Source: an uncultured Bacilli bacterium (GTDB lineage Bacteria; Bacillota_I; Bacilli_A; RF39; UBA660). Taken from it: 64,000 nucleotides of DNA. Below the pieces are notes generated by a model. The model was not told the DNA's origin and made no database searches. It saw only the letters and a program-made list of their open reading frames with translations. Position 1 is the first letter of the stretch. Each line of letters begins with the position of its first letter. The position numbers and the translations under genes were made by a program. Of the stretch, positions 2,760 through 29,322 are shown in pieces. The stretch is taken from positions 229,620-293,619 of the forward strand of contig CAKOSO010000001.1 in the NCBI GenBank assembly GCA_934102355.1, written 5' to 3'.

Positions 2760-3614
2760 TTATTTTTTTGAAATTTGTTTTGTATTATCTACATACTCAT
2801 ATTCTAAATTATTAAAAGTAGATACTGCAGATCGTTTAGTTTCCTTTTCATACAAATCTCTTGCACCTTTTGCTACCCCTCCACCACGTCTTGCCACTTC
2901 AAGATTTTCTTTCAATCCCTTTGGTTTCTTTTCACGTGCAATATCTCTTGTAGTAATTTCACCAATATTACTTAAAGCAACTTCAATATCTGTCATATTA
3001 TCTCTTAATGATTCTTTTCTAAGCCCTTTATACGTTTTATACTCATCAGCCTTCATTCCACACCAGGTTTTATAAATTTCATTTGTTAACATTCCATATT
3101 CATAATTTTCATTAATTCCACCTTCTTTCCATATATCTGTTAATTTTTTACGATTAAGAATTCCTTTTAATCTTATACTAATCCAATCATCCGAATAACC
3201 TTTTTTACGATAATAATCAATAGCTCTATTAATTGCCTTTTCAGGATCAAAAACCTCATCAATTCGTTCTTTACCCAAGGAAGCTAACCACATTTTAAAT
3301 GGCTCAGCCTTAGGACTAGGAACAGATTCAATTAACCTAAATATTCCCTTCGTATCCAAAGTATCAGTAAGATAACTTTTACCATCCTTTTTTGATTTCA
3401 TTTTAAGTTGCACGATATTTTCGTGCAACTGACTTCCTTCTTCTGACAATTTTCTTTTTAAATCGCTCCAATAATTTCTTGGTATGTTAGAACCAGTCAA
3501 AGCACCAATAACATCAACCACACTAAAATAATAATCTTCCTTCTTGCTATCCCAAACACTTCTTATTTCACTACCTTCAAATAAATTAGAAATTGTTTTT
3601 AATTTGTTATTCAT
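2760..3614 (-). CDS. Bro-N domain protein (phage antirepressor / DNA-damage-inducible-protein-D-like N-terminus)
   Basis: The N-terminus FEGSEIRSVW...YYFSVVDVIGALTGS matches the Bro-N fold pattern. Strong GGGAGG RBS. Two TTACCAATT copies lie immediately upstream. Confidence 0.55.
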   Translation of the reverse strand: MNNKLKTISNLFEGSEIRSVWDSKKEDYYFSVVDVIGALTGSNIPRNYWSDLKRKLSEEGSQLHENIVQLKMKSKKDGKSYLTDTLDTKGIFRLIESVPSPKAEPFKMWLASLGKERIDEVFDPEKAINRAIDYYRKKGYSDDWISIRLKGILNRKKLTDIWKEGGINENYEYGMLTNEIYKTWCGMKADEYKTYKGLRKESLRDNMTDIEVALSNIGEITTRDIAREKKPKGLKENLEVARRGGGVAKGARDLYEKETKRSAVSTFNNLEYEYVDNTKQISKK

Positions 3615-3638
3615 ATAAAAATCCTCCCTTCAAAATAA

Positions 3639-3888
3639 TTACCAATTTTTACCAATTTATATTTTTAAAACAATTCAAATAATTTTTTCCTACATAATCT
3701 CACTCACCTTTCATATTAATTATTTTAAAAAAAAGGAAGAAATACCTGCTGGAAAAAATTACCAATTTAAACAATAAATAACAAATCAACTAATTTCCAT
3801 TTTTTACCAATTAAAAATATAATCAAATAAAAAATTTCCAAGTTTTACCAAAAATATAATTAAAATAAACTGGAAAATTTTACCAATT
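3639..3888. repeat. cluster of six TTACCAA(T/A)T motif copies
   Basis: Copies at 3639-3647, 3649-3657, 3759-3767, 3804-3812, 3845-3853 and 3880-3888. The first two are phased 10 bp apart. A longer unit CTGGAAAA(A/T)(A/T)TTACCAATT occurs twice. Confidence 0.7.
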
Positions 3889-3896
3889 ATAATAAA

Positions 3897-3929
3897 ATAA
3901 AAAAACTAATAAGTTTTTCCTTATTAGTT
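3897..3929 (-). terminator. rho-independent terminator of the serpin gene (bidirectional-looking)
   Basis: Perfect 10-bp stem AACTAATAAG/CTTATTAGTT with a TTTTTC loop, flanked by A/T runs, 10 nt downstream of the stop at 3940. Confidence 0.6.
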
Positions 3930-3939
3930 CTAAAAAATT

Positions 3940-4998
3940 TTATTTTTGAAACTTAGTTATATCATCAACAAGCAATGCAAAATATGGAACATCTCTATCT
4001 TTTTCTTTTAAGAAAAGTGCAAAAGTACTATCAACATCAAAATGTCTAACTTCATTTTCCACAATAGACATTTTCATTATATCAGCAGCGGCTTCACTCT
4101 TAATTCTTCCCCCTTTTTCATCCAAAGAAAAACTAATAGTTTGAATAGCTTTTTCAATAATAGCTGTACCATTATAAGTCTTAAATTCTTTATTTTCCAA
4201 TTCGTAGAATTCTTTTTTAATATTAAAATCAATCATTGGAGCTTTAAAAGAATCAACATCATTAAAATTCCTATCACCATTATATGCCTTTGTTTTAGAC
4301 ATCATATTATTATATATTTCATTAAAAGTTTCACCAGTTGGATTCTTATAAAAAATAACCTCATCATTATCTTTAGTAATTAATTTAACTGCAAAATCAT
4401 CACTAGAATTATAAAATAAAACTTTTATTTGATTAAAAACTTCACTATTACTTTTAGAATTAACGCCAAAATATTTTATATTCTTATATTCACCAAAAGA
4501 AGATTTATCTAAAATACTAAATTTAGTATTATATTGAAATTCCCTATAAAGCATTGTATAAAAGAAATACCTTTCTACATTATCACTAGTTAAAGCATCA
4601 TCACTCCAATCAATAGAATCTAAAATATCACTTTCCTGATTAAACTTATCTTTTATAGCTTTTTCTATTTCATTTTTAAGCTTTATTGTCTTAGGTCCAT
4701 AAGTTTTATAGTAATAAGAATCACTAATCATTGATTCATTAAAACTCTCCTTATTAAGATTTTTCACCATTTCTATCTGAGGAGCAAACACTATATCTTG
4801 CTTTACAACTTCATTTTTCATATCATTCCACACTAATTGAAAAGTAGAACACCAACTTGTATTAGAAGAAACCTTATCGTCTAAAGTTGGCACAACATTA
4901 ACTGAAGAAGAAAAAGAAATACTCTTTTTATTAAAAAATAAAACTAATACAATAACCAAACAAAATAATATAATAATTACAATCTTACCTTTTTTCAT
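3940..4998 (-). CDS. serpin-family serine protease inhibitor, signal-anchored/secreted
   Basis: 352 aa with an N-terminal hydrophobic anchor. The C-terminus LDEKGGRIKSEAAADIMKMSIVENEVRHFDVDSTFALFLKE...PYFALLVDDI aligns with the serpin hinge, reactive-centre loop and PF.F.I...P.F.G.V core (compare alpha-1-antitrypsin [37 protein letters not shown]). Confidence 0.6.
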   Translation of the reverse strand: MKKGKIVIIILFCLVIVLVLFFNKKSISFSSSVNVVPTLDDKVSSNTSWCSTFQLVWNDMKNEVVKQDIVFAPQIEMVKNLNKESFNESMISDSYYYKTYGPKTIKLKNEIEKAIKDKFNQESDILDSIDWSDDALTSDNVERYFFYTMLYREFQYNTKFSILDKSSFGEYKNIKYFGVNSKSNSEVFNQIKVLFYNSSDDFAVKLITKDNDEVIFYKNPTGETFNEIYNNMMSKTKAYNGDRNFNDVDSFKAPMIDFNIKKEFYELENKEFKTYNGTAIIEKAIQTISFSLDEKGGRIKSEAAADIMKMSIVENEVRHFDVDSTFALFLKEKDRDVPYFALLVDDITKFQK

Positions 4999-5054
4999 AT
5001 ACCCTCCAAAACTATTATAACCACATTATAACAAAAAAATTATAAAATGCAAAA

Positions 5055-5082
5055 TTACAAAAATTACCAATTTTTACCAATT
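5055..5082. repeat. TTACCAATTTTTACCAATT tandem motif (two copies 10 bp apart, plus a degenerate third)
   Basis: Identical 19-mer to 3639-3657. Located in the promoter region of the serpin gene. Confidence 0.7.
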
Positions 5083-5091
5083 ATCATTAAA

Positions 5092-5120
5092 AAGAAAACC
5101 ACTCAAATTTAATTGAGCGG
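5092..5120 (-). terminator. putative terminator after the DUF1292 gene
   Basis: Imperfect hairpin CCACTCAA/TTGAGCGG followed by a T-rich tract on the minus strand. Confidence 0.4.
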
Positions 5121-5125
5121 CCAAA

Positions 5126-5383
5126 TTATTCTTTTTCAATTTCCTCAAGATTCTTTAAAAACATTGGTAAAAGAACATTTAAAAGTTCTAAATCTGCTAC
5201 CCTATCCAATAACCCGGTCTGATAGTTAGCACACAATACTTCAAAATTTCCATCAACATCTGATTCATCTTTTGTCAAACCACAAACATATAAATACTCA
5301 GATCCTTCATGAATCAAAGATGTAAGTACTACCTGTTTACTACCATCATCAAAGGTAATTATATCATCTGTTTTAAAGCTCAT
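5126..5383 (-). CDS. DUF1292-family small acidic protein
   Basis: 85 aa. The pattern DIITFDDGSKQVV...EYLYV...DGNFEVL matches DUF1292 (~90 aa, Firmicutes). Confidence 0.5.
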   Translation of the reverse strand: MSFKTDDIITFDDGSKQVVLTSLIHEGSEYLYVCGLTKDESDVDGNFEVLCANYQTGLLDRVADLELLNVLLPMFLKNLEEIEKE

Positions 5384-5425
5384 AAAATTCCCCTTTCATT
5401 CTTCTTTTTATTCTTTAAATCTTAA

Positions 5426-6322
5426 TTATTTAGTTTTTCCTTTTCTACCATCATAGATCTGTTTAACAACATAACTTGCTAAACCAACCATACCAACAAG
5501 TACTAACCATTGTGGTGCTAATATTGCAGACATTCCAGCTGCACCTACTGCTGCACCAATTAAACCATATTGTAATTTAGTTTTTGGTAAAATTTTAGAA
5601 ATATTTCTTTTAACAAATCCAGGTTTATTTTCAACTGATGTTGGTTTCTTACTTTCTGTATCTTCGTTTTCTTGTTTTTCTTCATCACTTTTTGACTTTT
5701 CATCAGATTTTTTTAAAATCTCATCTTTACTAAAATCATCATTTTGAGGTTCATCTTTTTTCTCATCAGAATTATTTTTAAATGCATATGATGGTTTTGT
5801 TTTATCTTCAGCAACAGGATCTTTATCCACTTTTGCTTCTTTTTCTTTATCAGCCTTTAAAGCATCAAAATCAAGTCCAGATTCTCTAAATAATTGTTCA
5901 GATAATGAACTTGAATAGCTCAAAGTTTGAGCATATAAAGCTCTTTGTTTTGATATTTCACCTTTAGCATATTCATTATTAGGATTATTCTTTAATTCTT
6001 CTTGTAAGAACATAATATTTCTTTCATAGAAATCATTCATTTTAGTTTTTTCAGCAATCTTTTCTTGAACTTTCTTACATTCTTCTATTTTTTTAATTAA
6101 ATTATCTCTATTATCCATAGCATTTTTAATAAGAGTTAAGTCAGTATCAGTTCTTTCTGCACCGCTCTTATTCATAGTATCTTTAAATAGATCTTCACAA
6201 TATTTATTAGCTCTTACTAATGAATCTTCATAATGTTTAATAATTAAATCGTATTTTTCATTATTATTAGCTAATTTCTTAGAATATGTTTCCTTATATA
6301 ATTCGAATTCTTTATTATTCAT
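5426..6322 (-). CDS. coiled-coil protein with a C-terminal transmembrane tail anchor
   Basis: Start reassigned to the ATG at 6322 (MNNKEF...), which is preceded by an AAGGGAGTGG RBS. Long charged coiled-coil region and a C-terminal hydrophobic segment GLIGAAVGAAGMSAILAPQWLVLVGMVGLASYVV. Confidence 0.5.
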   Translation of the reverse strand: MNNKEFELYKETYSKKLANNNEKYDLIIKHYEDSLVRANKYCEDLFKDTMNKSGAERTDTDLTLIKNAMDNRDNLIKKIEECKKVQEKIAEKTKMNDFYERNIMFLQEELKNNPNNEYAKGEISKQRALYAQTLSYSSSLSEQLFRESGLDFDALKADKEKEAKVDKDPVAEDKTKPSYAFKNNSDEKKDEPQNDDFSKDEILKKSDEKSKSDEEKQENEDTESKKPTSVENKPGFVKRNISKILPKTKLQYGLIGAAVGAAGMSAILAPQWLVLVGMVGLASYVVKQIYDGRKGKTK

Positions 6323-6348
6323 AAAATCCACTCCCTTTAACGGCACAT

Positions 6349-6377
6349 ATTATAACATAATCAACACACTTTGTCAA
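6349..6377 (-). promoter_or_regulatory. consensus sigma-A promoter for the 6322/DUF1292 operon
   Basis: Minus-strand TTGACA (6372-6377), 17-nt spacer, TATAAT (6349-6354). TSS about 20 nt upstream of the RBS. Confidence 0.6.
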
Positions 6378-6441
6378 TCTATTGTCATTATACAATAAAA
6401 AATATTAAAAATAAATAATAAAAACAATATTTTCTTTTATT

Positions 6442-7233
6442 TTACATAATATTTTCTTCTGCTATTAACACATTTACCTTTTTAGAAACAATAGTACAAG
6501 CATCAATCATTATAACTTTACCATCTTTTCTTTTTAAAATTGAAAAATCATTTTTCTTTCCAACACCGTACATAAATCTTATATCACTTGTATTAAAATG
6601 ACCAACAACAACCGTTTTTTTAGTATTTTTAATTTTTCTACCAAAAAAACTACCATCATCCCAAAGAAGAACTTCCCAATCAATATCTGGTTTTCTAAAA
6701 TCATCACAAAAACCATCTATTGATGCATGAGTAAAAATATAATTTTCTGTTTCATAATAATAATAAAAACTTTTAATCCAATCTAAAAGATCAGGATACA
6801 TCTTATTTATCAAATCACTAACACACATATTCCATGCTTTAAATACTTTAGTTTTAGAACTATTAACAAAAGACTTGCTATTATAGTAATCTTCTAAAGT
6901 ACCCTTGTTATTTAAAAAACTATAAATAGTAGTTTTTAAACCATTATTATTAAAATTAAATAGATTATCAACCTTACAAGGATTTTCCAAAAAATCAATT
7001 AAAAATTGATCATGATTTCCTCTTAAAACTATAGCTTTTTCTTCATCAGTTAATCTTTTTAACCAAATATATATTTCTTTATTCTCTAGTCCTCTATCAA
7101 AGATATCACCAAGAACTAACAATAAATTATTATTATCATTTTCGTCATATCCAGCATCTTTTAAAGAATCAATAGTAATTTTATAATGTCCATGAAGATC
7201 AGATATAACAAACAACTTCTTTATGTTTTTCAT
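6442..7233 (-). CDS. metallophosphoesterase (PrpE/ApaH-like Ser/Thr or bis-nucleosyl phosphatase)
   Basis: DLHGH, GDIFDRG and GNHD motifs. Start at the ATG at 7233 (MKNIKK), preceded by an AGGAG RBS; the longer ORF-track start lacks an RBS. Confidence 0.7.
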   Translation of the reverse strand: MKNIKKLFVISDLHGHYKITIDSLKDAGYDENDNNNLLLVLGDIFDRGLENKEIYIWLKRLTDEEKAIVLRGNHDQFLIDFLENPCKVDNLFNFNNNGLKTTIYSFLNNKGTLEDYYNSKSFVNSSKTKVFKAWNMCVSDLINKMYPDLLDWIKSFYYYYETENYIFTHASIDGFCDDFRKPDIDWEVLLWDDGSFFGRKIKNTKKTVVVGHFNTSDIRFMYGVGKKNDFSILKRKDGKVIMIDACTIVSKKVNVLIAEENIM

Positions 7234-7264
7234 ATTACTGCTCCTAAAATAAATTATATAATAA

Positions 7265-7389
7265 TTACCATAAAAAAGCGATAAAAATAAATCAATAAAA
7301 TAATCAAATTGGTAATTTTTACCAAAAATACAATAAAACAAAAAACGTAAAACTTTTCCAATATAATAAATTGGAAAATATTGGAAATT
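7265..7389. repeat. motif cluster including the palindrome TTGGTAAtttTTACCAA (7309-7325)
   Basis: TTACCAT at 7265-7271; perfect 7-3-7 inverted repeat at 7309-7325; TTGGAAAATATTGGAAATT at 7371-7389. Confidence 0.65.
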
Positions 7390-7409
7390 ATTATAATTAA
7401 ATAATCAAA

Positions 7410-7441
7410 CAAAAAAATCACATATTTTTAAAATATGTGAT
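7410..7441 (-). terminator. rho-independent terminator of the 7475-8167 gene
   Basis: Hairpin ATCACATATTTTTAAAATATGTGAT with flanking A7/T runs. Confidence 0.6.
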
Positions 7442-7474
7442 TTAACCTAATTACAACAAATAGTAAAAATACTA

Positions 7475-8167
7475 TTATTTATTTCTTTTTCTAATTTTTG
7501 CAATATAACCATCAAAATCTTTTTCCATTGATTTTTTTGCTTTCAACGCATTTTGCTTTTCAAGTTCCTTTTTATTTTGTTCTTCTAAATAACGCAAACC
7601 ATTCCTATAAAGATTATCCCTAATCCTAGCCATATTCTTTTGATAATAAGATATATCTTTATCTAAGAATGTAGAGATATCATCTATCACATCCTGTTTT
7701 GAAACTCTTACTCTTTTATAATAATTTAATTCAAATTTAGGATAATCATCTTTCTCTCCATCATTAATAATTTCACCAGTTATAACATCAATCATTTCTC
7801 CATTTTTATACTGGGCATATATACGAAGCGGTTTACTCACATTTTCAAATATATTATCTTGCGTTGCTTTTCCCCAACTATCAGGTTTATGATTGTCTCT
7901 TAAATACAAATTATAAAAAGCCCCTTCTACTTTATTTTCTTTTTTTTCTGGTTTAATAACCTGTGGCTTTACCTTTCCAGATAAAACCTTTTGCCATTCA
8001 TTTTCAATCTTTTTATAAAGATTTTCATCGAATTTTTTCAAACTTTCTCTTTCTTCAGGTGTTGCAAACGAAATTTTTATCCCATCAGCTGTTATATAAT
8101 CAACACTAGAAACAACTTCTCCATCTTCCATTACTTTTTTCACATAAAAAACTATATCCTTATACAT
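7475..8167 (-). CDS. hypothetical protein (charged, no recognisable domain)
   Basis: 230-aa ORF with a GGAGGAG RBS before the ATG at 8167. Confidence 0.45.
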   Translation of the reverse strand: MYKDIVFYVKKVMEDGEVVSSVDYITADGIKISFATPEERESLKKFDENLYKKIENEWQKVLSGKVKPQVIKPEKKENKVEGAFYNLYLRDNHKPDSWGKATQDNIFENVSKPLRIYAQYKNGEMIDVITGEIINDGEKDDYPKFELNYYKRVRVSKQDVIDDISTFLDKDISYYQKNMARIRDNLYRNGLRYLEEQNKKELEKQNALKAKKSMEKDFDGYIAKIRKRNK

Positions 8168-8266
8168 AACTTCTCCTCCTTATAAACTAAACAACCCCTA
8201 TTATATAGTAAAATATTAAAAAATCAACATTAATATACAAAATATCAATTAATCAAACCATAATAA

Positions 8267-8276
8267 TTTTACCAAT
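8267..8276. repeat. single TTTTACCAAT copy
   Basis: Upstream of the 7475-8167 gene. Same motif family. Confidence 0.4.
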
Positions 8277-8311
8277 AACATACCTTATCAAACAATACAA
8301 TTTAACCACAC

Positions 8312-8337
8312 AAAAAAGCGTCTTATTAAACGCCTTT
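8312..8337 (-). terminator. terminator at the 3' end of the T4SS-like operon
   Basis: GCGTCTT...AAACGC hairpin abutting the stop codon at 8337, with an A6 run (T-run on minus). Confidence 0.45.
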
Positions 8338-16736: not shown

Positions 16737-18494
16737 CTAATTATCATTTTTATTTAAATAATCAATTAAACTTATAGCAACATCTTCTGGAATAATAGTT
16801 TTTAATTCATCAATACTTGCTTCTTTTATTTTATTTATTGATTTATATTTTTTTAATAATTCTTTTCTTCTTTTATCCCCTATTCCAGAAACATTTTCTA
16901 ATATACTAGAAAGACCGCCTTTTTGCTTTATATTTCTATGATATGTAATAACATATCTATGAACTTCATCTTGCATCTTAGTTAAATATAAAAATAAATT
17001 ATTATCTTTTGGTAATTTTATCTCTTCTAAATTACTATCTATTATTGAATTAGTTCTATGATGATCATCTTTCTTAAGACCAATTACTTTTATATCTAAA
17101 TTTAAGCTATCAAGTATTTCTTTAGTAGCATTTACTTGTAGTTCACCACCATCTACAATAATTAAATCAGGTTTTTTTAAACCATCTAATAAAACCCTGT
17201 AATATCTTCTATAAATAACCTCTTTCATAGCAGATAAGTCATCTTTTACATCAATAGATATCTTATATTTTCTATACTCACTTTTTTTCGGTTCAAAACC
17301 TTCAAAAACAACCATTGCACCAACATAATAAGTACCAAATAAATGTGAATTATCAAAAAGTTCTATTCTATTTAACTCATCCAAATTAAGAAGTTCTTTT
17401 AATGAATTAATAGCTATATTTTTTTCATTTTCATTTCTTTTAATTAAATTAATTTTTTCTTTACTAGCAATCTCTGCATTTAAATTTGCCATGTCAAGAA
17501 TTTTTTTAATATCACCTTTTTTAGGTATTAAAACATTAACATCTAAATACTCATTCAATACTTCATAATCATTTATATCATTAATAACAATTTCTTTTGG
17601 AATAGAAAACTTCTCATAGAAATCAATAATATATCTAATATAAATATCATTATCTATAACATTATTAAAAATCTTATTATACTTACCAGTAACTACACCA
17701 TTTCTTATAAATAAAGTTGATATAGACAAAAAATTGTCTTCCATGTATATACCAAATACATCAAAATTATATCTAATACTAGATACTATTACCTGCTTAT
17801 TTAATATATTCTTGATACTATCTATTTCATCTTTTAAATCTTTTGCTTTTTCATAATTTAAAGCTTCACTAGCTTTATACATTTCTTCTTCTAATCTCTT
17901 AGTTAATACTTTATAATCACCATTTAAAATAGAAGTAATTTCTCTTTCCATATTATCTAGTTTTTCTTTATCAACTTCATATTTACAATACCCTAAACAC
18001 TCATTTATATGATAGTATAAACAAACATCTTTCTTTAAAGTCCTACACTTCTTTAATGGATATATTCTATTAAGTAAATTAACTGTTCTTCTTGCATCAT
18101 TAACATTAGGAAAAGGACCAAATAATTTATCCTTCGTTCTTTTTCTAACTTTATATCTTTCAATAGTAAGAGTTGGAAACTTATCATTTTTTAAAACTAT
18201 ATATGGATATGTCTTATCATCCTTTAATAAAATATTATATTTAGGATTATACTTTTTAATTAAATTTATTTCTAATATTAAACACTCAACATTAGTATTA
18301 GTAACAATATAATCAAAATCATAAATATTATCAACCAATACCTTAGTCTTACCAGTATGTATCTTATTAAAATAAGAATTAACTCTATTTTTTAAATTTT
18401 TAGCCTTACCAACATAAATAATAACACCATCTTTATTTTTCATTAAATAACATCCTGGTTTCGTTGGTAATAATCTTAGTTTTTCCTTTAACAT
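16737..18494 (-). CDS. uvrC: excinuclease ABC subunit C
   Basis: 585 aa. N-terminal GIY-YIG (GCYLMKNKDGVIIYVGKAKNLKNR), a UvrBC-interaction region, and a C-terminal RNaseH-like/HhH region. Confidence 0.85.
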   Translation of the reverse strand: MLKEKLRLLPTKPGCYLMKNKDGVIIYVGKAKNLKNRVNSYFNKIHTGKTKVLVDNIYDFDYIVTNTNVECLILEINLIKKYNPKYNILLKDDKTYPYIVLKNDKFPTLTIERYKVRKRTKDKLFGPFPNVNDARRTVNLLNRIYPLKKCRTLKKDVCLYYHINECLGYCKYEVDKEKLDNMEREITSILNGDYKVLTKRLEEEMYKASEALNYEKAKDLKDEIDSIKNILNKQVIVSSIRYNFDVFGIYMEDNFLSISTLFIRNGVVTGKYNKIFNNVIDNDIYIRYIIDFYEKFSIPKEIVINDINDYEVLNEYLDVNVLIPKKGDIKKILDMANLNAEIASKEKINLIKRNENEKNIAINSLKELLNLDELNRIELFDNSHLFGTYYVGAMVVFEGFEPKKSEYRKYKISIDVKDDLSAMKEVIYRRYYRVLLDGLKKPDLIIVDGGELQVNATKEILDSLNLDIKVIGLKKDDHHRTNSIIDSNLEEIKLPKDNNLFLYLTKMQDEVHRYVITYHRNIKQKGGLSSILENVSGIGDKRRKELLKKYKSINKIKEASIDELKTIIPEDVAISLIDYLNKNDN

Positions 18495-27195: not shown

Positions 27196-29322
27196 TTATT
27201 CATCAAAGAAATCATCAAAGAATTCATCTTCAGTAATCTTAATTTTCTTAGAATTATTAAAGATATTTGATACATCATCTTTTGCTTCATCAACAATTGA
27301 TTTTAATTCTGTTTTTTCAGTATTTTCAACTTCTTTAATTTCTTTTTCTTTTTCAAGTTTTTCCTTTTCTAATTTTTCTCTTTCTTCTTCCTCTTTTTCA
27401 AGTTCAGCAATCTTCTCATCAATTCTCTTAACTAGTTCATCTACATCAAAATCATTATCATTAGATCCACCAATTAATTTATCTATATCGTTTGAATTAT
27501 TATTAAATGGTAATGGATTAACAGGAGCTTGTGCAAAAGGATTTATTCCAGAACTTAATCCAGCAAAAGGATTATTATCCATTTGATTCATCATGCTATC
27601 TTGCTTTTTACTTTGAACAAAAGCCTTTAAATCAAATGTAGCAATTGGTTTTTTCTCGCGTTGAACAAATGGATCTGCTTCTGTCTTATTAATACCCCAA
27701 TCAGTTTTCCAGTTAGGATAAAGTTTTGTTTTATATGGACGACATCTAGTTTTAATAACAATTGCTTCGTTTTCTTTCATAAGTTGTAATTCTGAAACAG
27801 AAATTAAAGGCCTTGTTTCTTCATGTTCCTTATCGCCTTTACCAACTTTCACCTTTTTCTCACCACATAACTTTGAAATTTCTTCCAAAGCAGAAAGTTC
27901 AGTAGTAAGTAGATATAATAAATTATTACAGTTACTACGTATTGTTTGTGCAATCTCTTTAGAATAAGTAGCTTCAAGACCAGCAAAGTTTTGAATAATC
28001 ATTGTAAGTCTTATATGTCTTGATCTTGCAGCTGCAACCATTGTAGTAACATCTTTTAACGGAGGCATATTTTGGAACTCATCAAGTATAAAATTAGTTC
28101 TTATAGGTAATGCTCCATTTTGAGTATGTTGAGCAACATCAATCAAAGATTCATAACATTGTTTAATAAAAATAGTAGCTAGAGCATGATATGTTTTCTT
28201 TTCATCTTGTATAATCATAAATACTGCTGTTTTTTCTTTACCAATCATGTCCATATCAAAGTCACTAGTAGAAAGCATCTCAGATAAATTTTCACGAGAA
28301 GCAAAAATTCTTATCTTTTGTTTAAATGTAGAAAGTATTGAACCCTTTGTTTCTTCTGGAGCATAAACAGTACCACTAGCACATGTATAAGCAGCACTAG
28401 CAGGATTCTTTCCATTAAAGTATTCTTTTATATATGAACTTCTTGGTCCAAATCTTTCTTCACCAACTGATGCCATTACTGAAATACTATTAATATTTAC
28501 TTCCTCTTCTTTAGCATCCTCAAAAAGGCCTAAAGTAAGACCAGCGAAAAAATCAGCTGAAGTCTTTTCCCAGAAAGCATCTTTATTTCCGCCCTCTTCA
28601 TACAAGATATTAGAAGCAACGTCATCCAAAAGCTCCATTGCTTTATCAACATTACCACTTTTATATAACTTATAAGGTAAAGCTAAAGGATTCCAAGAAT
28701 TTCCTCTTTGGGGTTCACGGAAGTTTAATACAACAATCTTATAACCTCTTTCTTTTAATAATCCAGCACTTTCTTTGTATATTTCACCTTTTGGATCGGT
28801 GATAATCATTGATTCACCTTTTTTAATTAAAATCTTAACAAGTGGATGTACAACATCTTGCGTCTTACCAGCACCAGTAGATCCAATAACTAAGTTATGT
28901 GATTCACCATTATCAAGCCATATTTTTTTACCATCATTTATAAGTGGAAAACCAGCAACATTATAATATGGTTCTTTAATATCTACACAATCAAGTTTTT
29001 GTTTCATTTCTTTAGTTGTAGCAAATCTAGAATAACCACCTTTATCAGTTTCACCAAAACTTATTCCAAATCCCTTTTCTTTATCATAAAAATGAGAAGA
29101 AACACTAACAAATAAAAATATTAATACAACAAAATAAAATACAAGTACCATAGATATATATTTAGGACCAAATCCTATAAATGGATTAAGTCCAGCAAAA
29201 CTACCAGTAGTAGCAAAAGTATTAATATTAACAACTAAAATTGATACAGCAAAAAGTAAAACAACCGCAAATATTGCAAAAATAAACCAATCTTTTGGTG
29301 TAGCCTTCAACTTAAACTTCAT
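27196..29322 (-). CDS. VirD4/TraG-type type IV coupling protein (T4CP) ATPase
   Basis: 708 aa. 2 N-terminal TM helices, Walker A VIGSTGAGKTQ, Walker B FILDEF, and an RSRHIRLTMIIQNFAGLEATYSKE tail motif typical of the TraG/VirD4 family. Low-complexity E/K-rich C-terminus. Confidence 0.7.
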   Translation of the reverse strand: MKFKLKATPKDWFIFAIFAVVLLFAVSILVVNINTFATTGSFAGLNPFIGFGPKYISMVLVFYFVVLIFLFVSVSSHFYDKEKGFGISFGETDKGGYSRFATTKEMKQKLDCVDIKEPYYNVAGFPLINDGKKIWLDNGESHNLVIGSTGAGKTQDVVHPLVKILIKKGESMIITDPKGEIYKESAGLLKERGYKIVVLNFREPQRGNSWNPLALPYKLYKSGNVDKAMELLDDVASNILYEEGGNKDAFWEKTSADFFAGLTLGLFEDAKEEEVNINSISVMASVGEERFGPRSSYIKEYFNGKNPASAAYTCASGTVYAPEETKGSILSTFKQKIRIFASRENLSEMLSTSDFDMDMIGKEKTAVFMIIQDEKKTYHALATIFIKQCYESLIDVAQHTQNGALPIRTNFILDEFQNMPPLKDVTTMVAAARSRHIRLTMIIQNFAGLEATYSKEIAQTIRSNCNNLLYLLTTELSALEEISKLCGEKKVKVGKGDKEHEETRPLISVSELQLMKENEAIVIKTRCRPYKTKLYPNWKTDWGINKTEADPFVQREKKPIATFDLKAFVQSKKQDSMMNQMDNNPFAGLSSGINPFAQAPVNPLPFNNNSNDIDKLIGGSNDNDFDVDELVKRIDEKIAELEKEEEEREKLEKEKLEKEKEIKEVENTEKTELKSIVDEAKDDVSNIFNNSKKIKITEDEFFDDFFDE

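What the first reader, a model, noticed from the sequence alone, without database searches (positions are those of the whole stretch)
3639..8276. Recurrent TTACCAATT motif, often as TTACCAATTTTTACCAATT direct repeats with 10-bp phasing, confined to intergenic regions of the 2.7-8.3 kb block
At least 13 copies fall in ~1 kb of intergenic DNA (3639-3888, 5055-5082, 7265-7389, 8267-8276), against roughly 5-6 expected by base composition in the whole 128 kb of both strands. A 19-mer (3639-3657 = 5064-5082) and a 16-mer (3797-3812 = 16637-16650) are repeated exactly, and the unit CTGGAAAA(W)(W)TTACCAATT occurs twice. Helical-turn phasing suggests a dimeric or tandem-binding DNA-binding protein (operator sites for an island regulator) or a family of small repeat elements. 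The motif does not match LexA/Cheo, Spo0A, CodY, CcpA, Rex, parS or DnaA boxes as I recall them.
Basis: seen in the sequence. Interest (0 to 1): 0.7.

Follow-up and report, generated by a model that had tools for sequence, protein, structure and literature searches.

The report
AbrB-type paired operator sites
The recurring TTACCAATT words are real, highly non-random paired protein-binding sites (two TNCCA/TGGNA half-sites one DNA turn apart) at the control regions of a phage-derived cargo block in a gut spore-former. Their form matches the published operator of AbrB-type transition-state regulators, so this looks like a known kind of switch in a new place.

Summary
The unit is a ~20-bp bipartite site, not a 9-mer: two TTWCCAAT half-sites (core TNCCA, or TGGNA on the other strand), 5-bp AT-rich spacer, exactly 10 bp start to start, in direct or opposed orientation.

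- A strict scan finds 8 sites in 64 kb, all intergenic, all between uppP and uvrC. Expectation is 1.3 for the window and 0.06 for those intergenic regions. Three near-sites join them.
- They form a 5-site array upstream of the Bro-N gene, single or double sites upstream of two other cargo genes, and a 3-site array at 16.6 kb.
- This grammar is the published high-affinity AbrB consensus of Bacillus subtilis.
- The exact 19-mer, paired with a second strict site, flanks spo0A promoters in eight GC-rich Clostridia MAGs. The binder is therefore probably a conserved host factor.

Against an island regulator: Bro-N homologues (21 loci), serpin-like homologues and relatives' type IV secretion (T4SS) loci all lack the motif.

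Caveats: no AbrB-family gene lies in the window, nothing here shows binding, and the same site sits on phage-plasmids of C. difficile, which is reported to lack abrB.

Verdict: operators for an AbrB/SpoVT-family regulator, confidence about 0.5; a new member of a known kind.

The parts
3639..3657 (+). Site E: TTACCAATTTTTACCAATT (TACCA-5-TACCA, direct). On the gene strand it reads AATTGGTAAAAATTGGTAA and ends about 10 nt before the RBS of the Bro-N gene (ATG at 3614).
   Evidence: Invariant in L167 and L175 although the ~100 bp upstream of it carries about 12 changes in L175.
3749..3767 (+). Site D: CTGGAAAAAATTACCAATT (TGGAA-5-TACCA, opposed half-sites).
   Evidence: The TACCA half is invariant; the other half is mutated in L175.
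3793..3812 (+). Site C: ATTTCCATTTTTTACCAATT (TTCCA-5-TACCA, direct), identical to 16631-16650.
   Evidence: Invariant in L167 and L175.
3834..3853 (+). Site B (weak): TTCCA-AGTTT-TACCA, with a G in the spacer.
   Evidence: Not conserved: both halves are mutated in L167 and one in L175.
3870..3888 (+). Site A: CTGGAAAATTTTACCAATT (TGGAA-5-TACCA), just after the hairpin-plus-T-run terminator of the 3940-4998 gene that I read by eye at about 3905-3930.
   Evidence: The 15-bp core is invariant in L167 and L175.
5064..5082 (+). Exact 19-mer (direct pair). It lies between the terminator of the upstream gene (5122-5097) and the -35 of a predicted extended -10 promoter (5053-5025, TTTGCA-17-TGnTATAAT) for the 3940-4998 gene.
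   Evidence: Invariant in L167 and L175.
7307..7327 (.). Palindromic site AAATTGGTAATTTTTACCAAAAA (TGGTA-5-TACCA), upstream of the NinI-like phosphatase gene (6442-7236, minus strand).
   Evidence: Present in L134 and L167.
7356..7389 (-). TTTCCAAT half-site at 7356, plus the direct pair TGGAA-AATAT-TGGAA at 7372-7386 (TTCCA-5-TTCCA on the gene strand).
   Evidence: Present in L134 and L167.
8269..8277 (+). Isolated half-site TTACCAATA with no partner at 10 bp, about 40 bp upstream of the predicted -35 (8227) of the 7475-8167 gene. Membership is doubtful.
   Evidence: Flanking bases differ in L167.
16593..16688 (+). Right-hand array of three bipartite sites, 40 and 38 bp apart: TGCCA-ACATT-TTCCA (16593), TTCCA-TTTTT-TACCA (16633) and TACCG-AATTT-TACCA (16671). 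It lies between the terminator of the thioredoxin gene and the 3' end of uvrC, with no gene downstream.
2760..3614 (-). Bro-N domain gene (phage family phrog_15286), the gene downstream of the 5-site array.
   Evidence: Homologues sit on 21 viral contigs without the motif.
3940..4998 (-). Gene for a probably exported protein of 352 aa (I infer export from the hydrophobic N-terminal stretch of the translation). Its family is widespread in gut Firmicutes; 2 of the 120 listed homologues have a Pfam serpin hit. It lies downstream of the 5064 site.
6442..7236 (-). Metallophosphatase gene (NinI-like Ser/Thr phosphatase), downstream of the 7307-7389 sites.

Best explanation
The sites are high-affinity operators for a host-encoded AbrB-family regulator (AbrB/Abh/SpoVT type, swapped-hairpin DNA-binding domain).

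Proposed mechanism:
1. Each half-site ATTGGWAA (core TGGNA) is contacted by one N-terminal dimer of a tetramer. This puts two half-sites one helical turn apart and allows either half-site orientation.
2. A single pair sits at or just downstream of a promoter and blocks it: against the RBS of the Bro-N gene, and immediately upstream of the -35 of the 3940-4998 gene.
3. Arrays of 3-5 pairs about 35-45 bp apart would recruit several tetramers into a larger repressing complex.
4. The phage-derived cargo genes (Bro-N, the exported serpin-like protein, the NinI-like phosphatase) would then be silent during growth. They would be released when the regulator falls, in AbrB's case when Spo0A~P shuts off abrB at the transition to stationary phase or sporulation.

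Shown: the site grammar, its extreme enrichment, its placement, its conservation, and its match to the published consensus.

Inferred: the identity of the binder, the sign of regulation, and the timing.
For: 1. Grammar. All 11 sites are TNCCA/TGGNA pairs with a 5-bp spacer. The spacer is all A/T in 8 sites and has a single G or C in the other 3. Seven sites are direct and four are TGGNA-5-TNCCA. [quoted passage not shown]

2. Variation falls at the N position. In 22 window half-sites T, CC and A are essentially invariant, while N is A in 13, T in 8 and G in 1. Two C. difficile plasmid sub-families differ by TACCA versus TTCCA at that position, plus one flanking base.

3. Enrichment. There are 8 strict sites against 0.06 expected in the island's intergenic DNA. 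Background is about 1 per 100 kb in more than 500 kb of other Firmicute DNA.

4. A host factor is indicated.
- The exact 19-mer plus a second strict site 44-107 bp away flank the spo0A promoter or leader in 8 Clostridia MAGs of 47-57% GC. These fall into three unrelated sequence contexts and include the third orientation, TNCCA-5-TGGNA.
- AbrB negatively controls spo0A in B. subtilis and in C. tyrobutyricum (PMC9598496).

5. abrB promoters.
- Bacillus-like abrB promoters carry TGGGA-ATGCT-TGGTA, or a TGGTA-5-TGGTA-5-TGGAA triple, over their -10 region.
- Relaxed pairs are enriched upstream of 80 abrB genes most strongly at spacer 5 (5.7x) among spacers with adequate counts, then 4 (2.9x), against 1.1-1.4x at spacers 0-3. 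Spacer 9 gives 4.4x, but from only 8 hits.

6. Published B. thuringiensis AbrB footprints contain TGGAA-N6-TACCA and ATTTCC...TACAATT (PMC8552724).

7. The organism is an endospore former, with a sigG-like gene and a spoVA operon.

8. Conservation. The strong sites are invariant in three variants of the block, while a weak site and the flanking DNA change.
Against: - No AbrB- or SpoVT-like gene lies in the window or in 831 kb of fetched loci. Its presence in this genome is therefore assumed from the sporulation genes.
- Nothing here shows binding.
- The strict motif is upstream of only 1 of 80 abrB genes. Part of the TGGTA enrichment there comes from extended -10 boxes.
- AbrB is known for loose specificity, yet these sites share a 9-bp word and an identical 19-mer across distant taxa. 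That looks like a more sequence-specific protein.
- C. difficile phage-plasmids carry the same site. C. difficile was reported to have no abrB homologue (PMC3485338), although it has spoVT (PMC10294663).
- About 50 kb of the window outside the island and about 150 kb of relatives' DNA hold no strict 5-spaced site. That is few for a global regulator.
- The array at 16.6 kb has no promoter or gene to regulate.
Confidence: 0.5

Rival explanations
1. The sites are operators for a different, still uncharacterised, highly sequence-specific host regulator. It would be conserved across Clostridia and these low-GC 'Bacilli' MAGs, bind as a dimer of dimers, control spo0A, and be exploited by mobile elements. 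The resemblance to the AbrB consensus would be coincidental.
For: - The identical 19-mer occurs at spo0A in three unrelated contexts in GC-rich MAGs.
- The shared half-site (TTWCCAAT, 8 bp) is longer than TGGNA.
- The site is present in C. difficile phage-plasmids, and C. difficile is said to lack abrB.
- The strict motif is almost absent upstream of abrB genes.
- No paper in the library contains the 15-mer.
Against: - I know of no other DNA-binding family for which a fixed spacing with free half-site orientation is documented. That is from my own knowledge, not a test.
- The variable position coincides with the N of TGGNA.
- AbrB-spo0A regulation is documented.
- Experimental AbrB footprints contain TGGAA...TACCA pairs.
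Confidence: 0.25
2. The sites are operators for a regulator encoded by the island or cargo block itself: the Bro-N protein, the 230-aa orphan, or the 85-aa protein.
For: - The sites are confined to the block and its far end.
- Relatives' T4SS loci that lack the block also lack the sites.
- The strongest array precedes the Bro-N gene, and Bro-N is a DNA-binding domain.
- In L146 a 70%-identical Bro-N gene is also preceded by direct repeats, though of a different word, AAAAGTCCGGTT.
Against: - 21 Bro-N homologue loci lack the motif.
- No other block protein matches a DNA-binding family.
- The same 19-mer lies at housekeeping promoters of organisms without the block.
- In L175 the Bro-N gene appears disrupted, yet the sites are kept.
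- The 230-aa protein diverges fast (67-74% identity against 97% for its flanks) while the sites stay identical.
Confidence: 0.12
3. The sites are structural or recombinational rather than transcriptional: arm-type or accessory sites for a recombinase or excisionase, iterons, or a partition centromere of a decayed mobile element. This would explain arrays near both ends of the 14-kb island.
For: - Arrays of 5 and 3 sites with roughly 40-bp spacing lie near the two ends of the uppP-uvrC island, in the same strand orientation.
- The 16.6-kb array has no gene to regulate.
- The block is variable among relatives.
- A Bro-N homologue sits next to a serine recombinase in L146.
Against: - None of the Pfam-scanned ORFs of the island matches a recombinase, relaxase, Rep or Par family.
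- Internal sites sit at promoters.
- I saw no flanking direct repeats or target duplications among the 20 largest repeat families shown.
- The same site at spo0A leaders in other taxa has no recombination context.
Confidence: 0.08
4. This is a chance or compositional artefact of AT-rich intergenic DNA, or copies of a small repeat element (MITE).
For: The window is 26% GC, and the one-mismatch count of the 9-mer is barely above chance (72 against 58.6).
Against: - 8 strict pairs against 0.06 expected with composition-matched shuffles.
- Exact 10-bp phasing.
- Zero hits in coding DNA.
- Similarity ends at about 20-25 bp, with no terminal inverted repeats.
- The same 19-mer recurs in 47-57% GC genomes.
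Confidence: 0.02

Closest known systems
AbrB/Abh operators of Bacillus subtilis (bipartite TGGNA; SELEX of Xu and Strauch as cited in PMC3025583; ChAP-chip PMC3025583; GeF-seq PMC3738160)
   Same: - Two TGGNA pentamers with a 4-5 bp AT-rich spacer.
- Direct, inverted and everted arrangements are all used.
- Sites sit in AT-rich promoter regions.
- Long bound regions are made of several motifs.
- There is a link to spo0A and the transition state.
   Different: - Here the half-site is a longer, nearly invariant word (TTWCCAAT) and the spacer is always 5.
- Natural B. subtilis sites are mostly degenerate.
- The binder is unidentified.
- The sites are concentrated on one phage-derived cargo block, not spread through the 64 kb.
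Host Spo0A boxes on phage phi29/Nf genomes (PMC2731898)
   Same: A mobile or phage-derived element carries binding sites for a host developmental regulator, which ties its expression to the host's sporulation state.
   Different: The motif (TGTCGAA) and the protein are different. Here the element is a chromosomal cargo block, not an infecting phage.
Omega (RHH) repressor heptads of inc18 plasmids and MraZ box arrays (from my own knowledge, not tested here)
   Same: Short half-sites are repeated at a fixed phase, each bound by a symmetric dimer. For omega the relative orientation is free. MraZ has an AbrB-like fold and binds phased direct repeats.
   Different: - Omega uses a 7-bp period with the word WATCACW.
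- MraZ uses direct-only GTG-type repeats upstream of the dcw operon.
- Neither word matches TTWCCAAT.
PhoP/OmpR-family direct repeats (TTAACA-N5) and the PdhR/GntR box (ATTGGT-N3-ACCAAT; PMC7660256 surfaced)
   Same: TTACCA differs from TTAACA by one base and is directly repeated about one turn apart. The PdhR half-site ATTGGT equals the half-site here.
   Different: - PhoP boxes are head-to-tail only, with an 11-bp period. Here four sites have opposed halves and the period is 10.
- GntR palindromes have a 3-bp spacer. Here TTGGT-N7-ACCAA is found, and most sites are direct.

Membership tests
AbrB-type bipartite TGGNA operator | Two TGGNA/TNCCA pentamers per site | tested here: met
   8 strict sites plus 3 near-sites (one mismatch in a half-site, or one G or C in the spacer). 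In 22 half-sites T and CC are invariant and the final A is kept in 21.
AbrB-type bipartite TGGNA operator | Spacer of 4-5 bp, AT-rich | tested here: met
   All 11 sites have a 5-bp spacer. Eight spacers are pure A/T and three have a single G or C.
AbrB-type bipartite TGGNA operator | Half-sites tolerated in direct, inverted and everted orientation at the same spacing | tested here: met
   The window has 7 direct sites and 4 TGGNA-5-TNCCA sites. TNCCA-5-TGGNA occurs at the spo0A loci L007, L015 and L027.
AbrB-type bipartite TGGNA operator | Located in promoter or leader regions; extended regions made of several motifs | tested here: met
   All sites are intergenic. There is a 5-site array at 3639-3888 and a 3-site array at 16593-16688. 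Sites abut an RBS or a -35 element.
AbrB-type bipartite TGGNA operator | An AbrB/Abh/SpoVT-family protein is encoded by the same genome | not testable with these tools
   None is found in the 64-kb window or in related loci. The sigG-like gene and spoVA operon show an endospore former.
AbrB-type bipartite TGGNA operator | The same motif occurs at abrB's own promoter (autoregulation) | tested here: inconclusive
   The strict motif is upstream of 1 of 80 abrB genes. Relaxed pairs are enriched 5.7x at spacer 5 and 2.9x at spacer 4, against 1.1-1.4x at spacers 0-3. TGGGA-5-TGGTA overlaps the -10 box in Bacillus-like loci, which partly confounds the count.
AbrB-type bipartite TGGNA operator | Physical binding by the protein | not testable with these tools
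   Needs EMSA, footprinting or DAP-seq.
OmpR/PhoB-type (PhoP box) direct repeats | Head-to-tail repeats only, with an 11-bp period | tested here: not met
   Four sites have opposed half-sites. The period is 10 bp in all 9 exact pairs.
GntR/FadR-type PdhR box | Palindrome TGGT-N3-ACCA | tested here: not met
   The only palindrome is TTGGTA-ATTTT-TACCAA, in which TGGT and ACCA are 7 bp apart. Most sites are direct repeats.
IS/MITE terminal repeats or other small repeat element | A conserved unit longer than a protein site, with terminal inverted repeats and target duplications | tested here: not met
   Similarity between copies is limited to about 20-25 nt, and beyond that it is only AT-richness.
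Iterons or partition centromere | Adjacent rep or par gene; a regular tandem array | tested here: not met
   No island ORF matches a rep or par family. Site-to-site spacings are irregular: 110, 45, 41 and 35 bp, then 40 and 38 bp.
Sigma-70-type promoter elements | Two hexamers 16-18 bp apart, in a fixed orientation relative to the gene | tested here: not met
   The half-sites are 5 bp apart. Orientation relative to the downstream gene differs between loci: the window and L006 against L002, L005 and L046. At spo0A the site lies downstream of a good promoter.

The most novel reading that the evidence does not exclude
(TTWCCAAT)-N2-(TTWCCAAT) is the operator of a conserved, highly specific regulator of endospore-forming Firmicutes that has not been characterised. 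It could be SpoVT, whose DNA motif is not defined in the papers I read, or a wholly unknown protein. It would act directly on spo0A in many uncultured Clostridia, and phage-plasmids and phage-derived cargo blocks would have copied its site to couple themselves to the host's developmental state.
Probability: 0.27. Interest if true: 0.65.

Novelty: new member of a known kind. Interest (0 to 1): 0.4.

Why it matters
If the reading is right, a phage-derived cargo block carrying three genes (a Bro-N protein, an exported serpin-like protein and a NinI-like phosphatase), sitting next to a chromosomal type IV secretion cluster in an uncultured human-gut spore-former, is wired to the host's transition-state and sporulation circuit through near-consensus AbrB-type operators.

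- It gives a concrete, testable site model (TTWCCAAT-N2-TTWCCAAT, any orientation) for AbrB-family regulons in uncultured gut Firmicutes, where almost no regulatory sites are known.
- The side observation may be worth more than the island itself. The same paired sites flank spo0A promoters in eight Clostridia MAGs, which predicts a direct AbrB-family-to-spo0A feedback in those lineages.
- If the binder turns out not to be AbrB, the sites mark an unknown conserved regulator of sporulation entry.

Tried and rejected
- **Bro-N as binder.** 21 viral loci with 41-70% identical Bro-N genes have no motif upstream.
- **Motif tied to the T4SS.** About 150 kb from relatives with 82-89% identical VirB4 has no 5-spaced strict site.
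- **Motif tied to the serpin-like gene family.** Loci with about 60% identical homologues have none.
- **Block-encoded regulator.** Pfam, PHROGs, NCBIfam and PDB sequence searches of the block proteins gave no DNA-binding family apart from Bro-N. The 230-aa orphan has only 4 homologues, and its AlphaFold model has pLDDT 52, so I did not run a fold search on it.
- **RNA element.** Rfam found only the tRNA. The site occurs in both orientations relative to downstream genes.
- **MITE/IS.** Similarity ends at about 20-25 nt.
- **Promoter for an alternative sigma factor.** The spacing and the variable orientation do not fit.
- **Autoregulation test on 80 metagenomic abrB loci.** The strict motif is nearly absent. 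The relaxed analysis is suggestive but confounded by TGGTA in extended -10 boxes.
- **Literature search for the exact words.** No paper contains the 15-mers. The 9-mer hits are primers, or the PdhR box.
- **Source contig.** The Bro-N protein is not indexed. VirB4 places the sequence in human-gut (Hadza) metagenomes.
- **Viral scan of the 19-mer.** It returned mostly the C. difficile phage-plasmid family and one jumbo-phage triple repeat, which was not informative.

Full report
**1. The observation**

Exact TTACCAATT occurs 12 times in the window against 2.4 expected; none of 100 dinucleotide shuffles reaches 12. Eight copies lie in 3639-7315 and one at 16642. The three others (37231, 40147, 50304) are isolated and lie in coding DNA. 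With one mismatch allowed the 9-mer is barely enriched (72 against 58.6), so the signal is in how the words are paired.

Reading all TACCAA occurrences with their flanks shows the real unit. It is two half-sites TTWCCAAT (core TNCCA, or TGGNA when inverted), separated by five mostly A/T bases, 10 bp start to start. Nine half-site pairs in the island's intergenic DNA are exactly 10 bp apart.

A strict scan (TNCCA or TGGNA, a spacer of 4 or 5 A/T bases, all orientations) gives 8 hits in the 64 kb. All are intergenic, all lie between 2742 and 16736, and all have a 5-bp spacer. Whole-window shuffles give 1.33, maximum 5. Shuffling only the island's 1.5 kb of intergenic DNA gives 0.06, maximum 2 in 2000 shuffles. 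A relaxed scan adds 3836, 16593 and 16671.

In 22 aligned half-sites T, CC and A are essentially invariant. The N position is A in 13, T in 8 and G in 1, and the flanks give TT-W-CCA-ATT. Copies resemble each other for only about 20-25 nt, so they are sites, not copies of an element.

**2. Context**

The window is 22-31% GC and comes from an endospore former, with a spoVA operon and a sigG-like gene. The closest matches are contigs from human-gut metagenomes, and the few named homologues are labelled 'Bacilli bacterium'.

A 14-kb island lies between uppP (1923-2741) and uvrC (16737-18494). It holds a type IV secretion cluster: thioredoxin/TraF, two small membrane proteins, a pilin, a TrbL-like protein and VirB4. 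Downstream of that is a cargo block at 2760-8167:
- a 230-aa orphan protein;
- a NinI-like metallophosphatase;
- a two-gene operon of unknown function;
- a 352-aa probably exported protein from a widespread family, in which 2 of the 120 listed homologues have a serpin hit;
- a phage-type Bro-N protein.

The sites are placed as follows:
- Five sites lie in the 325-bp gap upstream of the Bro-N gene. The last one ends about 10 nt before its RBS.
- One exact 19-mer lies between a terminator and the -35 of a predicted extended -10 promoter of the 352-aa gene.
- Two to three sites lie upstream of the phosphatase gene.
- Three sites, 40 and 38 bp apart, lie in the convergent gap between the thioredoxin gene and uvrC.

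The T4SS structural genes, and the middle operon with its perfect TTGACA-17-TGnTATAAT promoter at 6377-6349, have no sites.

**3. Comparative evidence**

- *Same block, other samples.* L167/L168 (97% identical) and the more divergent L175 keep the strong sites unchanged. The weak site at 3836 and one half of site D decay, and about 12 changes accumulate in the ~100 bp next to site E.
- *Relatives' T4SS loci.* Relatives with 82-89% identical VirB4 carry the T4SS cluster in other neighbourhoods, without this block. They have no 5-spaced strict site in about 150 kb.
- *Bro-N homologues.* Those on 21 viral contigs lack the motif.
- *Serpin-like homologues.* Those in housekeeping contexts lack it.

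So the sites travel with this particular block, not with any of its gene families.

Scanning one genome per species for the exact 19-mer gave 53 loci. Twelve are Firmicute MAGs of 47-57% GC, where such an AT-rich word is not expected by chance.

In eight of them the 19-mer lies in the promoter or leader of spo0A, confirmed by Pfam Spo0A_C. These fall into three unrelated sequence contexts. Each has a second strict site 44-107 bp away, including the third orientation, TNCCA-5-TGGNA. Others lie between mnmE and mnmG, between parB and serS, and upstream of murC and secA.

C. difficile phage-plasmids carry one such site 83 bp upstream of a BlaI-like regulator gene: 16 PLSDB records and 10 IMG/VR contigs. 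Two sub-families differ there by TACCA versus TTCCA, which is the N position, plus one flanking base.

**4. What it most likely is**

The reverse complement of the 19-mer is AATTGGTAAAAATTGGTAA, which is TGGTA-AAAAT-TGGTA. This matches the published high-affinity consensus of B. subtilis AbrB: bipartite TGGNA, a 4-5 bp AT-rich spacer, direct, reverse-direct, inverted or everted, with long footprints built of several motifs (PMC3738160; PMC3025583).

The mixture of orientations at one fixed spacing is unusual. From my own knowledge it fits a tetramer whose two symmetric N-terminal dimers each read one half-site.

Further support:
- AbrB lowers spo0A expression in B. subtilis and in C. tyrobutyricum (PMC9598496).
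- Bacillus-type abrB promoters carry TGGGA-5-TGGTA or a TGGTA-5-TGGTA-5-TGGAA triple.
- Among spacers with adequate counts, relaxed pairs upstream of 80 abrB genes are most enriched at spacers 5 and 4.
- Two published B. thuringiensis AbrB footprints contain TGGAA-N6-TACCA and ATTTCC...TACAATT (PMC8552724).

The proposed mechanism is repression by promoter occlusion or roadblock at single pairs and cooperative multi-tetramer binding at the arrays. Repression would be relieved when the regulator's level falls at the transition to stationary phase or sporulation. The grammar, placement and conservation are shown. The binder, the sign of regulation and the timing are inferred.

**5. Reasons for caution**

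- No AbrB-family gene is in the window or in the fetched loci.
- The strict motif is nearly absent upstream of abrB genes.
- The sites are far more uniform than natural AbrB sites.
- C. difficile, whose phage-plasmids carry the site, is reported to lack abrB (PMC3485338), though it has spoVT. The C. difficile sporulation study I read reports no SpoVT binding motif (PMC3789822).
- The array at 16.6 kb has nothing obvious to regulate.

I therefore assign the sites to the AbrB/SpoVT family at about 0.5. An unknown conserved host regulator gets 0.25, a block-encoded regulator 0.12, a recombinational or structural role 0.08, and artefact 0.02.

**6. Novelty and score**

The site type is known. Its near-perfect, clustered use on a phage-derived cargo block beside a chromosomal T4SS in an uncultured gut spore-former is a new instance. 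The more interesting by-product is the conserved pair of identical sites at spo0A in many uncultured Clostridia, which predicts direct control of spo0A by the same factor. Interest is 0.4.

Noticed in passing
L002 2419-2544; L005 2000-2094; L007 3598-3656; also L011, L015, L024, L027, L042: In eight Clostridia MAGs of 47-57% GC, the exact 19-mer lies in the spo0A promoter or leader (Pfam Spo0A_C confirmed in the five scanned). In seven of the eight a second strict TGGNA/TNCCA pair lies 44-107 bp away. They fall into three unrelated sequence contexts. This predicts direct control of spo0A by the factor that binds the window's sites.
   Followed up: partly
L176 4001-4020 (NZ_CP020425.2 30224-30243); L178 1501-1517: C. 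difficile ~45-kb phage-plasmids carry one TWCCA-5-TACCA site 83 bp upstream of a BlaI/MecI/CopY-family regulator gene. Two plasmid sub-families differ by TACCA versus TTCCA, plus one flanking base. C. difficile is reported to lack abrB.
   Followed up: partly
window 8337-16553 and 27196-29322; L135-L145: The T4SS cluster (thioredoxin, pilin, TrbL-like, TraC-like, VirB4) is widespread in low-GC gut MAGs: VirB4 is 72-89% identical among the 120 listed homologues and has more than 7000 homologues. It sits in different housekeeping neighbourhoods, with no relaxase or integrase among the genes called. In relatives the coupling protein follows VirB4, in some next to a Fic protein. In the window it is 17 kb away, beside spoVA.
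   Followed up: partly
window 7475-8167: This is a 230-aa orphan protein directly downstream of VirB4. It has only 4 homologues in the 5.8-billion-protein set. It is 67-74% identical between strains whose flanking DNA is about 97% identical, so it evolves fast. The AlphaFold model was too poor to use (pLDDT 52).
   Followed up: partly
window 3940-4998: This 352-aa protein has a hydrophobic N-terminus and belongs to a large gut-Firmicute family (1864 homologues). Elsewhere the family sits beside S41 and M18 peptidase genes. Two of the 120 listed homologues carry a Pfam serpin hit, but the window protein itself has no Pfam or PDB match.
   Followed up: partly
window 6349-6377 (minus strand): A perfect sigma-A consensus promoter (TTGACA-17-TATAAT with a TG extension) precedes the 5426-6346 / 5126-5383 operon. 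This is the only cargo transcription unit without any TNCCA pair.
   Followed up: no
L146 2690-2790: A 70%-identical Bro-N gene on a viral contig lies next to a large serine recombinase. It is preceded by three copies of a different repeat, AAAAAGTCCG(G/T)TT. The layout is the same as in the window but the word is different.
   Followed up: no
window 6442-7236: The metallophosphatase is NinI-like (phage Ser/Thr phosphatase). It has a weak match, far below the family cut-off (E = 0.001), to the Legionella Dot/Icm T4SS effector Wip. That is suggestive given its position beside a T4SS.
   Followed up: no
window 16554-16736: The three-site array lies between two convergent gene ends, downstream of a terminator, with no ORF to regulate. 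It may be a relic of a lost control region, a boundary element, or an antisense control region.
   Followed up: no
L180, L185, L190, L194 (IMG/VR contigs of 63-266 kb): Large phage contigs (63-266 kb; three exceed 180 kb) share a triple phased repeat, TTACCAATTTTTACCAATTTTTACCAC, in an AT-rich intergenic stretch.
   Followed up: no
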